64,000 nt of DNA from Octopus sinensis (Eukaryota), in assembly GCF_006345805.1 (NCBI RefSeq), contig NC_043012.1, positions 28,892,001-28,956,000 on the forward strand, written 5' to 3'. Position 1 is the stretch's first letter. Each line of letters starts with the position of its first letter. A program made the position numbers. Positions 1 to 57,000 of the stretch are shown here, piece after piece.

Positions 1-3000
1 ATATATATTATATATATATATATATATATATTAATATTTAATTAAATATTAAAATAATTTTTTAAGCTATTTTTTATATTCATAAATATCTCTAATAGTT
101 GACTTTGTTCTATTATTGTTTATATATAGCTATTTTCAATTGATAATTTGTAGTAGTATTTTTCGTTGATAAATATATTCGTAGTTTTTATTGGATACTA
201 TATAACTACGGATTGATAATTTCATCGTATAAGTATTTAGGTGTTGAAGATATCTATTTCATTATTTCATTATTAGTTCTTAACTATACGGTTTTTGTAA
301 GTTATTAATTAGCCAACGAGATATATGGATCGTTAAATAGTTATAGGGTTCTTTTAAGATAGTTTATTTGTTTACAATTTGCATTTTCATCTTTAATCTT
401 TTAATATTTAATATATTTCATAAGTAATAATGAATAATTAATTTATTTAGTATTTTATTATACGTATATATATTTATTGATAGAGATAATTTTAGATCTT
501 AATTTTTATATTTATATATATTTATTGATAATTTTGTTATTACTCAAATATTTTATAATTATTTGATTTGAACTTAAATTTAATAATATGAATAGTGATT
601 TTTTTTTGTTAAATAATTAGGTAATTAGATGTTGACTATAACTGAGATTAGGTTATTCGTGAGTTTATTATGTTTTTTAAAGCCATATTATATCTGAATA
701 GATAAATACATTTTCTATCAATTCTTACTTTAAAAAATTAATTTTGAACATTATAATCGATTGTATGACATAATCATAATCGTTAAAGTTTATAGTTTGA
801 TAATAGAGTTTTTTATAAGAAAAATTATTATTTTATTTATTTCTTTAAAATATTGTTTAAATATATTTGCTTATTTATTTAACTATTATCTTTAACCTGA
901 AGATTGATTATAACCATAATTCGAATTATTAATTGAATTTAAATTATTGTAATTCGAATTAGGGTATGAGCATGAAACGTACGTAGTGGTTTTACTTTTA
1001 TCTTATATTAAGCATTTTAATACTTTTGATAGTTATATATATTAAAAAGAAATTATTAAAAAATTATAAATATAAATTAATAATTTTAATTTTAAATTTA
1101 AATAATTTAAATTTTTAAATTTTATATTTTATATATTTTGTATATTATATTAATTATTTTTATTTTTATGTTTTGGTTTATATTTTTCATTGTTTGATTT
1201 GCCTAATAGTGGTTTTATCTCCAATTTAATTCATATATATATATATATAATATATATATATGTTCACTAAAAGTGAAGGTTAAATGGATAATATAGTTTG
1301 CGATGATGTAAAGTTTAGGTAAAAATTGGGCATAGGTGAGTTACATGGAGTATAAGTAAGGTAGGGGTTAACAATGGGTGTGATATGTGTTAATGTAATT
1401 ATGGGATTCAATATAAAGATCTCTCTCTCTCTCTTTCTCTCTCTCTCTCTATCTATCTATCTATCTATCTATCTACTATCTATCTATCTATCTATCTATC
1501 TATCTATCTATCTATCTATCTATCTATATATATTATATATATATATATATATATATATATATATATAATATATATATATATATCACCTTGATCACCTTGA
1601 TCACCTTGACCGACCAGTCCGTCGGGCGCCCATTTGACACCGCTGGTCACAGCACGATGTCCACTCCTCTCTGGATCGCGCCTATCTCATCCACGTGATC
1701 CCAATCGTCCTCCTGAAATCGTAACTCCGCCGTCGTGGAGGCCTTCCGGGTGGTCATTTCCGCTCGCGCTGGTACCACTCGACAATTGCGCCGGTCCACC
1801 GATTATCGGTGAGCCGGGTGACGTGTCCAGCCCTTCTAAACTTGCTGCGTGTATACTCTGCGATGACATCCCTCACTTCATTCTGATGATCTCTCTACTG
1901 ATGTGCTCTCTCAACGAGATACCAAGCATTGACCTACATATATGTATATGTATATATCTATATCTATATCTATCTATCTATGTATCTATCTATCTATCTA
2001 TCTATCTATCTATCTATCTATCTATCTATCTATCTATCTATCTAAATATATTTCGTCTTCTAATTGTTTTGCGTTCTTGTCCCAGTTTGTGTTTTTTTAC
2101 ATTTACCTATTATATGGCGGCGCCCGTAACCCCTTTTGATATTGTATGTAAAATACATTTTCTCTCTAATACATGGTACGACTCAATAACACTGTCTCTC
2201 TCTCTCCCCCTCTCCTACATTTCTCTGCCTTTCACACTGTGCACTCCACGTTGACCCGTCTCTTTCTCTCTTCCTCTGTCCCGCTTTTCTCCCCCCTCTT
2301 CTCACACGTGACTAACTTTGGACTGCTGTCCTGCCTTTTCGTGATCAACGGCCGTATAGGCTAGACACATTTTTTCTCTCTTCGCCTTCAGGCATTTTTT
2401 CAATGCGCCAGCTGAAGTTCACCCGTCCTGTCGAAAAGACGCCTGTCTGTAACGTCCTGTTTTTGTTATTATTATTATCATTATTGTTTTTACGTATTTT
2501 CGTATTCTTATTCGTGTTATCATTATTCATTTTACGTATTTTTGTATTCTTATTCGTTCCCGTCCTTGTTTTGTATACATTCGAGGCTTTCTTCCAAGGA
2601 ATCTAATGCGCTTGGCATAGATTTTCCTTTGGGGCTGGCCAGATCGGAGCAATCTCAAGATTAATCAGCCGAAATTGCGAAGATGATCCGGTTCTTGACT
2701 GAAGATCGAAGGCTTCGAATGTCCCGTCCGTTTTTTTGTATCGTCTTCTAAATGTTTTGCGTTCTTGTACCAGTTTGTGTTTCTTTACATTTACCTTATA
2801 TATATATATATATATATAATATATATATATAATATATATATATATATATATATATATATATGGATAAATTAAGAAAAGGAGTTAAATGCGGGTGTTATTC
2901 AAATCAATTAGACTTCCAACTTTCGAAAACATCATTGAGATTATTCCGGAGGGAATAACAATGATGTAAACCAATGTAATCATCTCGCCAGAGAAACAGG

Positions 3001-54000: not shown

Positions 54001-57000
54001 ATGTGTTTGTATACGCTTGTATTTTTTATATTTACACGTCACATATTTGAATGTGTGTACGCATGCGCGCATATGAATATAAATACGTTAAATTTTATAG
54101 GATTTTCTATTGCTGTTAACCTGTCTGTTTTATGAGTTAGTTATTTGTACCCTTCATGATGAGACTGATGCACTGCTGACCATAATTTGTCCTGTCGGAC
54201 ATTTTAAAGTGCATCCGTCGAAACATATGTAGAAGAATTCAAGATATAAATGGTTTAACAACATCTCGAGAATTCGTCTCCTGTCTAATCTTGCCATTTT
54301 CTACTAAATACGACTTACTATCTCGGATTTCAACATTTAGTTATCTTGTAAATATTCCACTATAGTTTTCCTTCAAATTGTAAACTCTCTCTCTCTCTCT
54401 CTCTCTTTCTCTCTCTCTCTTTCTCTCTCTCTCTTTCTCTCTCTCTCTGTATATGTATATATACATATACATATATATATATATATATATATATATATAT
54501 ATATATATGTATGTATGTATCTGTGTGTGTATATATATATGTATACACAAATATATACATATACATATATATATATACACACATATGTATATACATATAT
54601 ATACTATCATATATATATTATACATGCACTGACGCTAACACGCATACATATGTGTATGTGCGTTTGCATGTGTGCATGATTGTTGTCGCTACATTGTTTA
54701 GACCCAGCACACATGATTGTACTCACTGAATTTTTTAGAAAAACTTGATGCCTAAAATTTACTTAATTCCTAACTTAAGATTACTATTATCTTCAACGAG
54801 GCCTATTATATTTTGCCTACTCTACTCATTCAGTATTAAATACATATATACATACATACTTATGCATATATACACATACATATATACATACATACGCATA
54901 CACTTATACATACATATATACATACATACACATGTAAATGAGTGCGTGTGAGTGTGTGTGTGTGTGCGCGCGCATTAATACGTGTCTGCGTATATACAGC
55001 CTTGTGGTGGAAATTAAGGTGATTGAAACGAATGTGTGGGAGACCACTGAGTGGGCTGTTACATGATTTCGAGGCGCCAGTCTTATCAAATTGTATCCCA
55101 CTAATTCTTTATGAAGATTACATTAAGGATACAAGTGTATGGAATACTCAACCACTTACATAATAATGAATTATTAGTGGGTTGATAGTTCCAGTGATCA
55201 GTCATCTAGAATACACATGCGTCTATACGGGATTTCAACATTATGTGTGTGTCTGTGTGTTTGTGTAAGTGGTTTTCTTTCTCTCTGTAATTTTAGAGTA
55301 AATTTTGAACGGCCACCGACTTGGTAGCAAAGTTGTGAAGTAAAGTATCTTGATTTAACCATCATCCTTTAAATCTTAAGAACTTCTTAGAGTCCCAGAT
55401 ATCGTGATCATTTGTAACTTATGAATTAGGGATTTGCACTCTTGCCCCCAAGATTGCGAGATCAGCCCATACTTTGCTCCAGACGGGTCGGTATGTATCC
55501 TGTTGCTCCAATACTGATAAGTATGAAGCTGAAAGTGTACCTTGGGTACTGGATTTGCAAACACCTTATCAATGATCGATAGATCTCCACTTCTCCTGTA
55601 TTTTTCTGGTCAAATTCATGTCCAGACAGCAGCTGATTTCCACAATAGAACATATCTTTAGGTTGCGGTCCCACGCAACGATATATTCTTTAGACCTATC
55701 TGTCTCAGTTATGTATGTATGTATGTATGTATGTATGTATGTATGTATGTATGTATGTATGTATGTATGTATGTATGTATGTATGTATGTGTATGTATGT
55801 ATTATGTATGTATGTATGTATGTATGTGTATGTATGTATGTATGTATGTATGTATGTATGTATGTATGTATGTATGTATGTATGTATGTATGTATGTATG
55901 TATGTATGCATGTATGTATGAATAAAGACAAACCTGAAATCTATACGACAACCTCATAACTCATACTGACAGGCAGCCATGTAAGCCAGTACATGTAGGG
56001 TGGGCTCATCATTGACAAAATCGGTATCATCAAAACGTTTCGCGAATCTTGTGGTTTCTGAACACTCATATAAGATGAAAATACTCGCCCAAAGATTAAT
56101 CAACTTAAGGGAATCAACTATTCATTATCGTGAATATATAAATACGCATGTGCGTATATATCTGCATTTACACGTGTATGCACATCCGCCCAGGAGAAGG
56201 GCACTCTTACTTGGGACTTGCAGTTTTAATGTCCCTGGTGGTCTTGGTTGTTTTTGTTTGTTACAAGTTTAGACACTTCAAGCATTTGGAAAGCAGCATT
56301 CATTTTGCACGAATGTGTAGCCCTTTAAATCTATACCTATATGTGTATATATGTGTAGGCATGAATGTATGAGTATACATACATAGATACATGCATACGT
56401 TACAGTATTATCTACCGATGAGACATTGTGTTATAGCCTGGACACTGTATAACGAGATCCGACGAAAGGATAACCCCGAGGACAAAGAAATAAGAACCCA
56501 AAGTATGGTACAAGCCATAGCTACTCATCATGGAAAGGAGTACTGGCGGATTGTCCCAGTGAAAACTTCAATAGATCACAATAGACCTGATGTAATGATT
56601 TGGGATAGAGAAGAGATACTGTATACAGTTGTGGAGATCAGCTGCCCAGCGGATGTTAACATACAACTGAAGATCAGTGAAAAAGAGAATACCTACGCAG
56701 AACTTTTGAGAAATCTATCCAGTGACTCTATCCAGATTACAAATTCAGATTTATACCTGTAGTTATTGGGGTACTAGGATATGTAATACACTAAATACCA
56801 ATCTTGAGAAATTAGGCTTCTCAAAACCAGAAAGGAGAAAGCCACTAAGAAGACTACAGATTCAAGCCGTCACTGGAACTGTAAAATCTATAAACCTTTC
56901 CAGACATTTATCATTTAAGTATACATGAGCATGTCTAGATATGCAAGTATATGCATGAGAAAACATACATTAAACAAGACATGCAAATTTGCACGTAAAT

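What the first reader, a model, noticed from the sequence alone, without database searches (positions are those of the whole stretch)
893..54235. Dense multi-family population of hammerhead ribozymes in small (TA)n-embedded elements
Seen: about 14 type I HHR-like motifs (near 897, 3900, 5487, 10890, 16409, 24050, 24079, 25701, 26140, 26570, 28715, 29054, 37990/38211, 54156). Stem sequences are unrelated between families but pair around the same core. Known: PLEs carry minimal HHRs, and metazoan non-LTR retrozymes are small HHR-containing tandem elements that yield circular RNAs. Inference: this genome hosts a diverse retrozyme / non-autonomous PLE system mobilised by PLE RT and GIY-YIG, remnants of which lie in the same window. 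I cannot verify whether these families are already described.
Basis: partly seen in the sequence, partly recalled or inferred. Interest (0 to 1): 0.9.

Follow-up and report, generated by a model that had tools for sequence, protein, structure and literature searches.

The report
Hammerhead ribozyme motifs of Penelope-like retroelements
This repeat-rich stretch of an invertebrate-like genome holds several real-looking self-cleaving hammerhead RNA motifs that belong to decayed Penelope-like retroelements and small relatives of them, which is a known kind of thing and less numerous than first claimed.

Summary
Partly confirmed; a known kind.

- **Complete type I hammerheads (3):** 5487, 16409, 29054.
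- **Intact core, one weak helix (4):** 10890, 24050, 24079, 897.
- **Core-mutated relics (3):** 37990, 38211, 54156.
- **Do not fit (5):** 3900, 25701, 26140, 26570, 28715.
22338-22384, with the U3-A8 core variant. It is the only site an Rfam hammerhead model matched, and that match is below the gathering score.

My own descriptors find 2-4 strong sites, against 0-0.23 in shuffles and decoy cores. Those descriptors were tuned after I had seen the sites.

Penelope-like (PLE) RT and GIY-YIG remnants are present at 3280-3591, 4446-7168 and 11945-16004. Family A is the 3' region of one PLE, laid out as inverted, 5'-truncated copies.

The motifs at 5481-5527 and 22338-22384 are canonical-size hammerheads. 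Each sits in a unit of about 460-510 nt that is strongly self-paired and flanked by microsatellites, which is retrozyme-like. However, the window has no tandem array with two ribozymes.

Minimal PLE hammerheads, opposite-strand pairs, the U3-A8 core and the (TA)n insertion bias are all already in print. Cleavage, circular RNA and covariation remain untested or unsupported.

The parts
5481..5527 (+). HHR B: complete type I hammerhead of canonical size. Helix I is 6 bp, helix II 4 bp and helix III 4 bp with a 4-nt loop. Predicted cut after 5521.
   Evidence: score 14. The centroid fold keeps helices I and II. No Rfam match in the small-region search.
5063..5779 (+). Element carrying HHR B, between (TA)n runs. 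5067-5151 is an inverted copy of 5571-5655 (100%). 5170-5320 repeats at 5628-5779 (99.3%), period 458, so about 1.33 units with one ribozyme. It sits inside a 1.1-kb interruption (4843-5977) of PLE-1.
   Evidence: The unit 5170-5627 folds with z = -5.4.
4446..7168 (+). PLE-1: frameshifted RT-containing ORF remnant in two blocks, 4446-4842 and 5906-7168.
   Evidence: tblastn with P0122 and 150 relatives (best E 1.3e-68).
3280..3591 (-). PLE-3: C-terminal (endonuclease-end) remnant.
   Evidence: 43 HSPs, best E 1.3e-07.
10852..10899 (-). HHR A copy. The core is intact, helix II is 7/8, and helix III is the 8-nt palindrome ACAGCTGT. Helix I is decayed (3/4).
16403..16454 (+). HHR A copy: complete PLE-type minimal hammerhead. 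Helix I is 4-5 bp and helix II 7 bp after an unpaired base. Helix III exists only as the palindrome ACAGCTGT, which implies a dimer.
   Evidence: Fold z = -2.0.
10764..11274 (-). Left arm of the inverted repeat (81.8% to 16017-16540). It is the 3' region of PLE-2.
   Evidence: (I10, I16).
16017..16540 (+). Right arm: an inverted, 5'-truncated copy that abuts the truncated 5' end of PLE-2 at 16004.
11945..16004 (-). PLE-2: GIY-YIG end at 11945-12493 and RT C-terminal part at 15321-16004. The two are adjoining in the aligned protein and are split by a LINE-type element (RVT_1 + zf-RVT, 12716-15391).
   Evidence: (PF01541 E 9.3e-4, below cut-off).
22338..22384 (+). Core TTGACAA (U3-A8 variant), helix II 4 bp, 10-nt palindromic helix III, helix I 6 bp.
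   Evidence: Rfam Hammerhead_HH9 at 25.8 bits, E 8.5e-05 in a 141-nt search, below the gathering score of 52.
21995..22500 (+). Element of about 506 nt carrying HHR H, lying between microsatellites. Internal inverted repeats give a rod-like fold.
   Evidence: z = -7.5; 0 of 100 shuffles fold as well.
23920..24145 (.). Element E in (TA)n: a head-to-head palindrome with hammerhead cores on both strands (24018-24069 minus, 24068-24119 plus). Helix I is 10/11 and helix III 3 bp, but helix II is only 2 bp or less.
51924..52070 (-). Second copy of element E. It lacks the central 79 nt, and its two arms meet within 1 nt of the predicted cleavage sites.
29049..29094 (+). HHR D: complete minimal hammerhead. 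One bulged base is followed by an 8-bp helix II. Helix III is reduced to the 4-nt palindrome ACGT. Helix I is 5 bp.
   Evidence: Fold z = -3.0. No Rfam hammerhead match.
37869..38338 (.). Second family A locus: inverted arms 37869-38038 and 38165-38338 (88%). The hammerheads are core-mutated relics at about 37945-37996 (minus) and 38207-38254 (plus).
54152..54235 (+). HHR C: relic with core ATGATGA (C3 changed), helix II 11/12, the 8-nt palindrome ACATATGT, and helix I 4 bp.
   Evidence: z = -3.5; the cofold shows an intermolecular helix III.
893..989 (+). HHR F: weak candidate. The core is intact, helix II is long but imperfect, the palindrome is ACGTACGT, and helix I is 3/4.
26452..26505 (-). 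Relic that shares only the 3' half (GAAACAGCTGTAAGA) with family A. No core is recognisable.

Best explanation
The window is transposon- and microsatellite-rich DNA. It holds decayed Penelope-like elements (PLEs) together with the type I hammerhead motifs that PLEs and their short ORF-less relatives carry.

**Shown from sequence**
- There are three PLE ORF remnants (an RT with a telomerase-like fold, then a C-terminal GIY-YIG-type end).
- Family A hammerheads lie about 1 kb downstream of the endonuclease end of PLE-2. They recur in inverted, 5'-truncated copies that share a 3' end.
- Four motifs are complete (B, A at 16403, D, H). About seven more are decayed copies.
- Two architectural classes are present.
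  - PLE-type minimal motifs (A, C, D, F) have a long helix II, a short helix I and a palindrome in place of helix III.
  - Canonical-size motifs (B, H) have helix I of 6 bp and helix II of 4 bp. They sit in self-paired units of 460-510 nt flanked by microsatellites.

**Inferred**
- Element transcripts self-cleave at the hammerhead. The minimal motifs would do so only as dimers, formed through the palindrome.
- The PLE protein nicks AT-rich or (TA)n DNA and copies the RNA by target-primed reverse transcription.
- Template switching produces the inverted and partial-tandem copies.
- The ORF-less units are copied in trans.
- Most copies in this window are dead.
For: **Motif excess:**

**Anatomy:** the per-site parses are.

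**Core variant:** H carries U3-A8, a compensatory change in the catalytic core, and gets the only Rfam hammerhead match.

**PLE remnants**
- They are mapped.
- The protein family is large: 19,344 representatives at E of 0.001 or better.
- Invariant residues in the alignment include the Y-DD of the RT motif, four linker cysteines, and the Y, Y-G, R and H of the C-terminal block.
- The model has mean pLDDT 88. Its best PDB match is TERT, E 2.9e-08.
- GIY-YIG (PF01541) is seen at E 9e-4 in the window's own fragment and in one relative.

**Layout:** inverted arms and shared 3' ends are. Proximity to (TA)n is.

**Agreement with print**
- PMC4209133 (passages) describes minimal hammerheads in PLE flanking repeats. 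[quoted passage not shown]
- PMC8557442 (passages) describes inverted 5'-truncated copies, microsatellite and (TA)n insertion bias, and a Zn-finger-like linker.
Against: - No Rfam hammerhead family reaches its gathering score. Two of the three small-region searches found nothing.
- Covariation among the 5 aligned family A sequences is no better than shuffles: 1 compensatory pair, and 187 of 500 shuffles reach the observed score.
- MFE folds do not reproduce the full three-way junction for any site.
- Pfam and PDB sequence searches barely see RT or GIY-YIG in the protein family.
- The 670 nt between the PLE-2 endonuclease end and the family A arm holds microsatellites, so their contiguity is inferred.
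- For one vertebrate PLE, the hammerhead was not needed for insertion in vitro, and no reads ended at its cut site (PMC11167929, passages).
- There are no cleavage or expression data.
Confidence: 0.75

Rival explanations
1. The motifs are chance matches. In AT-rich, hairpin-rich, microsatellite-laden DNA, the short core boxes CTGANGA and GAAA fall next to fortuitous stems.
For: - Five of the 15 listed coordinates fail on anatomy.
- Score-11 hits at 21809, 28035 and 45165 (and 20017, at 12, once a bulge is allowed) sit near the background level of 0.6-0.7 per window.
- Rfam gathering-level search is negative.
- The descriptors were tuned after inspection.
Against: - The strong tier is absent from 300 shuffles and from all decoy cores run on the real sequence.
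- Family A recurs in 4 copies with the same architecture.
- H has a compensated core change and an HH9 match.
- Family A is physically tied to a PLE.
Confidence: 0.1
2. An active retrozyme system. The small units are transcribed from tandem arrays, cut at two consecutive hammerheads, ligated into circular RNAs and reverse-transcribed by PLE RT.
For: - B and H have the canonical helix sizes reported for retrozyme ribozymes.
- They lie in low-GC, strongly self-paired units.
- B is present as 1.33 tandem units.
- PMC7229834 (passages) describes retrozymes as tandem repeats of 150-450 bp that yield self-paired circRNAs.
- A preprint abstract links retrozymes to PLE terminal repeats.
Against: - No locus here has two hammerheads in tandem, so none can release a unit-length RNA by itself.
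- The units are 458 and about 506 nt, at or above the usual size.
- Each family has one copy in the window.
- There are no RNA data.
Confidence: 0.25
3. DNA-level foldback or MITE-like elements. The palindromes (element E, the two family A loci, the H unit) would be terminal inverted repeats of DNA transposons, and their hammerhead likeness would be incidental.
For: - Long, near-perfect inverted repeats are present.
- Tc1/mariner remnants lie in the window.
- Element E has only a 2-bp helix II.
Against: - The arms are unequal in length and the outer ends are not inverted repeats of each other.
- At locus 1 the arm abuts a 5'-truncated PLE ORF.
- This layout is the published PLE insertion pattern (PMC8557442).
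Confidence: 0.1

Closest known systems
Minimal type I hammerheads of Penelope-like elements (Cervera and de la Pena 2014, PMC4209133)
   Same: Families A, C, D and F share these features: open helix I of 4-5 bp, a long helix II (7-12 bp) often after an unpaired base, and helix III reduced to a short palindrome, which implies dimers. The motifs lie in PLE terminal regions, as opposite-strand pairs or as solo copies. The U3-A8 core variant also occurs, in H.
   Different: The specific stem sequences are new to me. I could not compare them with published family lists, because supplements are closed and no animal genome collection was available. Cleavage is untested. C and two family A copies have inactivating core changes.
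Non-LTR retrozymes of animals (Cervera and de la Pena 2020, PMC7229834; preprint 10.64898/2026.07.22.740005)
   Same: B and H are canonical-size type I hammerheads. They sit in small, low-GC, highly self-paired, ORF-less units in a genome that also holds PLEs.
   Different: There is no tandem array. B is 1.33 units with one ribozyme, and H is a single unit. The units are 458 and about 506 nt, against the usual 150-450. Circular RNA is not shown.
Rfam Hammerhead_HH9 (RF02275)
   Same: H aligns over the whole model, including the loop 2 letters CAAAAA.
   Different: The score of 25.8 bits is about half the gathering score of 52. The core is U3-A8. The context is a repeat element rather than a conserved gene locus.
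C-terminal-endonuclease PLEs with a Zn-finger-like linker (Neptune and Nematis clades, as described in PMC8557442)
   Same: The domain order is RT then GIY-YIG. There are invariant cysteines in the linker. Other shared features are inverted 5'-truncated copies, hammerheads near the 3' end, and a microsatellite context.
   Different: No clade assignment was made and no tree was built. Pfam does not recognise the domains at its cut-offs. All three copies in the window are broken.

Membership tests
Hammerhead ribozyme, type I | Conserved core boxes (CUGANGA, GAAA, UH cleavage site) in type I order | tested here: met
   Intact at 5487, 10895, 16409, 24058, 24079, 29054 and 897. Present as the U3-A8 variant at 22344. 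One or two core changes at 38211, 37990 and 54156.
Hammerhead ribozyme, type I | Three helices closing the junction | tested here: met
   Met in full for B, A (16403), D and H. One helix is weak at 10890, 24050/24079 and 897. Not met at 3900, 25701, 28715, 26140 and 26570.
Hammerhead ribozyme, type I | Match to a curated covariance model at its gathering score | tested here: not met
   Zero matches at gathering score. The best is HH9 at 25.8 bits against 52, at 22326-22400.
Hammerhead ribozyme, type I | Covariation that supports the helices | tested here: inconclusive
   Five family A sequences give 1 compensatory pair, which is not above shuffles. No further copies were available.
Hammerhead ribozyme, type I | Site-specific self-cleavage | not testable with these tools
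   Needs in vitro transcription assays.
PLE minimal hammerhead | Long helix II, short helix I, and helix III absent or a short palindrome | tested here: met
   A, C, D and F. Criteria are taken from passages of PMC4209133.
PLE minimal hammerhead | Location in the terminal repeat of a PLE | tested here: met
   Met for family A only: the arm lies downstream of the PLE-2 endonuclease end, with an inverted copy at its 5' end. C, D and F have no ORF remnant nearby.
Penelope-like element | Single ORF with RT followed by a GIY-YIG endonuclease | tested here: met
   Homologues of about 700 aa. Invariant Y-DD and Y...Y-G...R...H blocks. TERT-like fold. PF01541 and PF00078 appear only below their cut-offs. 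The GIY-YIG fold was not tested separately.
Penelope-like element | Pseudo-LTRs, or inverted 5'-truncated copies | tested here: met
   Arms 10764-11274 and 16017-16540 flank PLE-2. No direct pseudo-LTR pair was seen.
Non-LTR retrozyme | Tandem repeats, each with a type I hammerhead | tested here: not met
   TRF finds no period above 46 nt. The only partial tandem is 1.33 units with one ribozyme.
Non-LTR retrozyme | Small, low-GC, highly self-paired unit without an ORF | tested here: met
   B unit z = -5.4 and H unit z = -7.5.
Non-LTR retrozyme | Expressed as circular RNA | not testable with these tools
   Needs RNA data.

The most novel reading that the evidence does not exclude
Element E may preserve a genomic footprint of hammerhead cleavage before reverse transcription.

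- The two copies (23920-24145 and 51924-52070) differ at 2 positions within the shared arms. Both differences are mirrored in the two arms of each copy. That suggests independent insertions, each of which made its own head-to-head duplication.
- In the short copy the arms meet within 1 nt of the predicted cut sites. This is what a cDNA would look like if it ran to the 5'-OH end of a self-cleaved RNA and then snapped back.

If this holds genome-wide, it would show that ribozyme-processed RNAs are templates for PLE-type integration. The one in vitro study I read found no sign of that.
Probability: 0.15. Interest if true: 0.55.

Novelty: new member of a known kind. Interest (0 to 1): 0.3.

Why it matters
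The window shows two known hammerhead settings side by side in one 64-kb stretch: PLE terminal regions and retrozyme-like units. It also shows PLE remnants and microsatellite targets. That fits the recently argued link between animal retrozymes and PLEs.

The window adds candidate ribozymes for testing, including one with a compensated U3-A8 core and several that should act only as dimers. It does not reveal a new class of element or a new mechanism.

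Tried and rejected
- Most E-value hits were miRNA families matching microsatellites or the element E palindrome (for example MIR395 at 50 bits). I treat these as artefacts.
- The 8-kb search did not list the HH9 match that the 141-nt search found. Negative results from the larger searches are therefore weak.

**Covariation.** The family A test was uninformative.

**Folding.** MFE folding of single motifs did not discriminate. 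Cofolding shows the expected dimer for C and F, but any palindrome would do that.

**Protein family.** Pfam on the PLE fragments and relatives gave only sub-threshold RT and GIY-YIG hits. A PDB sequence profile gave nothing significant. The fold search settled the RT part only.

**Organism.** It was not identified.
- The LINE RT has 45-49% identity to cnidarian and crustacean proteins.
- The mariner transposase has at best 84% identity to a named mantis shrimp protein. Neither is diagnostic.

**Not used or not available.**
- No further copies of any family could therefore be fetched. Genome-wide copy number, family consensus and whether these families are already catalogued all stay unchecked.
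- Supplementary files of PMC4209133, PMC7229834 and PMC8557442, which hold motif and family lists, were closed and may bear on that question.
- The paper whose title includes 'cleave RNA as dimers' was not in the library. I saw only that 10 papers hold the phrase.

Full report
**What the window is.** It is 64 kb with no N and about 25-41% G+C. About 9.7% lies in repeats of period 6 or less, and there are 77 runs of (TA) of at least 6 units. It also carries many transposon remnants: LINE-type RT, mariner and Tc1 transposases. I could not name the organism.

**Is there an excess of hammerhead-like motifs?** Yes.
- The bare core pattern matches 18 times, against 2.96 expected. That count includes overlaps and repeated copies.
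- A strict type I descriptor gives 3 hits, against 0.16.
- A graded score of 13 or more gives 4 sites. The mean is 0.23 in 200 shuffles and 0.22 over 60 decoy cores applied to the real sequence. The decoy control allows for the natural density of hairpins.
- A PLE-type descriptor (optional bulge, palindromic helix III) gives 2 canonical hits plus 1 U3-A8 hit. It gives none in 300 shuffles and none in 179 and 59 decoy cores.
- I wrote these descriptors after looking at the sites, so they flatter the data.

**Rfam is largely silent.**
- Nothing reaches a gathering score.
- No hammerhead is listed in the larger E-value searches.
- Among three small-region searches, only 22326-22400 gave Hammerhead_HH9, at 25.8 bits against a gathering score of 52. 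The regions around 5481 and 29049 gave none.
- The 8-kb search lost the HH9 match, so the large searches are insensitive here.

**Site by site.**
- 3 are complete motifs: 5487, 16409, 29054.
- 4 keep the core but have one weak helix: 10890, 24050, 24079, 897.
- 3 are core-mutated relics with family or helix support: 38211, 37990, 54156.
- 5 do not fit: 3900, 25701, 28715, 26140, 26570.

It has core TTGACAA, a 4-bp helix II, a 10-nt palindromic helix III and a 6-bp helix I.

**Penelope-like remnants.**
- The fragment 6468-6803 hits a 712-aa protein, P0122.
- That family is very large: 19,344 representatives at E of 0.001 or better.
- In a 20-member alignment the invariant residues include the Y-DD of the RT motif, four linker cysteines, and a C-terminal Y...Y-G...R...H block.
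- Pfam sees RVT_1 and GIY-YIG only below its cut-offs. A PDB sequence profile sees nothing significant.
- The AlphaFold model (pLDDT 88) has telomerase RT as its best structural match, E 2.9e-08. This fits the published kinship of PLE and telomerase RTs (abstract passage of PMC8557442).
- tblastn with 151 family members maps remnants only to 3280-3591 (minus), 4446-4842 and 5906-7168 (plus), and 11945-12493 and 15321-16004 (minus).
- The last two are adjoining in the aligned protein. They are separated by a LINE-type element.

**Family A belongs to PLE-2.**
- The arms 10764-11274 and 16017-16540 are inverted copies, 81.8% alike.
- The right arm abuts the truncated 5' end of PLE-2 at 16004.
- The left arm lies downstream of the endonuclease end on the same strand. 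The hammerhead is about 1 kb past the ORF and about 90-135 nt from the outer end of the arm.
- A second locus (37869-38038 and 38165-38338) holds shorter inverted copies that share that outer part, and their cores are mutated.
- This is the published PLE insertion pattern: an inverted 5'-truncated copy next to the 5' end, with hammerheads near the 3' end (PMC8557442). It also matches the reported opposite-strand pairs 100-700 bp apart (PMC4209133).
- The architecture of A, C, D and F matches the minimal PLE hammerhead of that paper: a long helix II after an unpaired base, a short helix I, and a palindrome for helix III.

**B and H are different.**
- Both have helix I of 6 bp and helix II of 4 bp, the canonical animal sizes quoted in PMC4209133.
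- B lies in a 458-nt unit present as 1.33 copies plus an 85-nt inverted piece. This sits between (TA)n runs, inside a 1.1-kb interruption of PLE-1.
- H lies in a unit of about 506 nt between microsatellites.
- Both units fold far better than shuffles, with z = -5.4 and -7.5. That recalls the self-paired retrozyme RNAs of PMC7229834.
- However, TRF finds no long-period array and no locus has two ribozymes in tandem. I call them retrozyme-like and do not file them as retrozymes.

**Element E (23920-24145).**
- It is a head-to-head palindrome in (TA)n with cores on both strands, a long helix I, and only a 2-bp helix II.
- A second copy (51924-52070) lacks the central 79 nt. Its arms meet within 1 nt of the predicted cut sites.
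- Both sequence differences within the shared arms are mirrored within each copy.
- A symmetric deletion would land there by chance in roughly 1 case in 15, by my estimate, and n = 1. I keep this as the novel reading at low probability.

**(TA)n context.** Six of 11 sites have (TA) runs of at least 6 units within 500 nt on both sides, against 12% of random intervals. The sites are not all independent. Microsatellite and (TA)n insertion bias of PLEs is in print (PMC8557442).

**Verdict.** The thing is a known kind. The hypothesis that animal retrozymes derive from PLEs is already published as a preprint (abstract seen). The role of the hammerhead in PLE mobility is still unclear (PMC11167929). 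What I could not do was fetch more copies, test covariation properly, see RNA data, or consult supplements.

Noticed in passing
window 12716-15391 (minus): A LINE-type retrotransposon remnant (RVT_1 plus zf-RVT, with an (AAT)n tail side near 12500-12620) is inserted inside PLE-2, between its RT and endonuclease parts.
   Followed up: partly
window 25314-25386, 37262-37334, 37715-37787; and 10539-10613, 37486-37560, 39190-39264: Two short repeat families (three copies each) end in (TA)n. They flank both family A loci in mirror order. They look SINE-like or may be part of a longer PLE terminal region.
   Followed up: no
window 34351-35046 (plus), 59672-60088 (minus), 27818-28093 (plus): Mariner (HTH_48, Transposase_1) and Tc1-like (DDE_3) transposase remnants. 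The best named mariner relative is 84% identical and comes from a mantis shrimp, which does not identify the organism.
   Followed up: partly
window 24025-24112 and many microsatellites (e.g. 30243-30570, 48915-48987, 54499-54567): Sub-threshold Rfam miRNA hits (mir-297, mir-3149, MIR395 at 50 bits against a gathering score of 56). They come from microsatellites and from the element E palindrome, and are most likely artefacts.
   Followed up: partly
window 18412-18508 and 49197-49298: An inverted pair of an 80%-identical repeat holds the core-like string that produced two of the 18 simple pattern matches. The surrounding ORFs (16866-18043) look retroelement-like but have no Pfam match.
   Followed up: no
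window 4843-5007 and 5796-5977: The 1.1-kb block that splits PLE-1 has about 165 and 182 nt of non-repeat sequence outside the (TA)n runs. This is possibly an older small element into which the HHR B unit landed.
   Followed up: no
window 26164-26426 and 36926-37165: An 85%-identical direct repeat lies next to the family A-like relic at 26452-26505 and next to the second family A locus.
   Followed up: no
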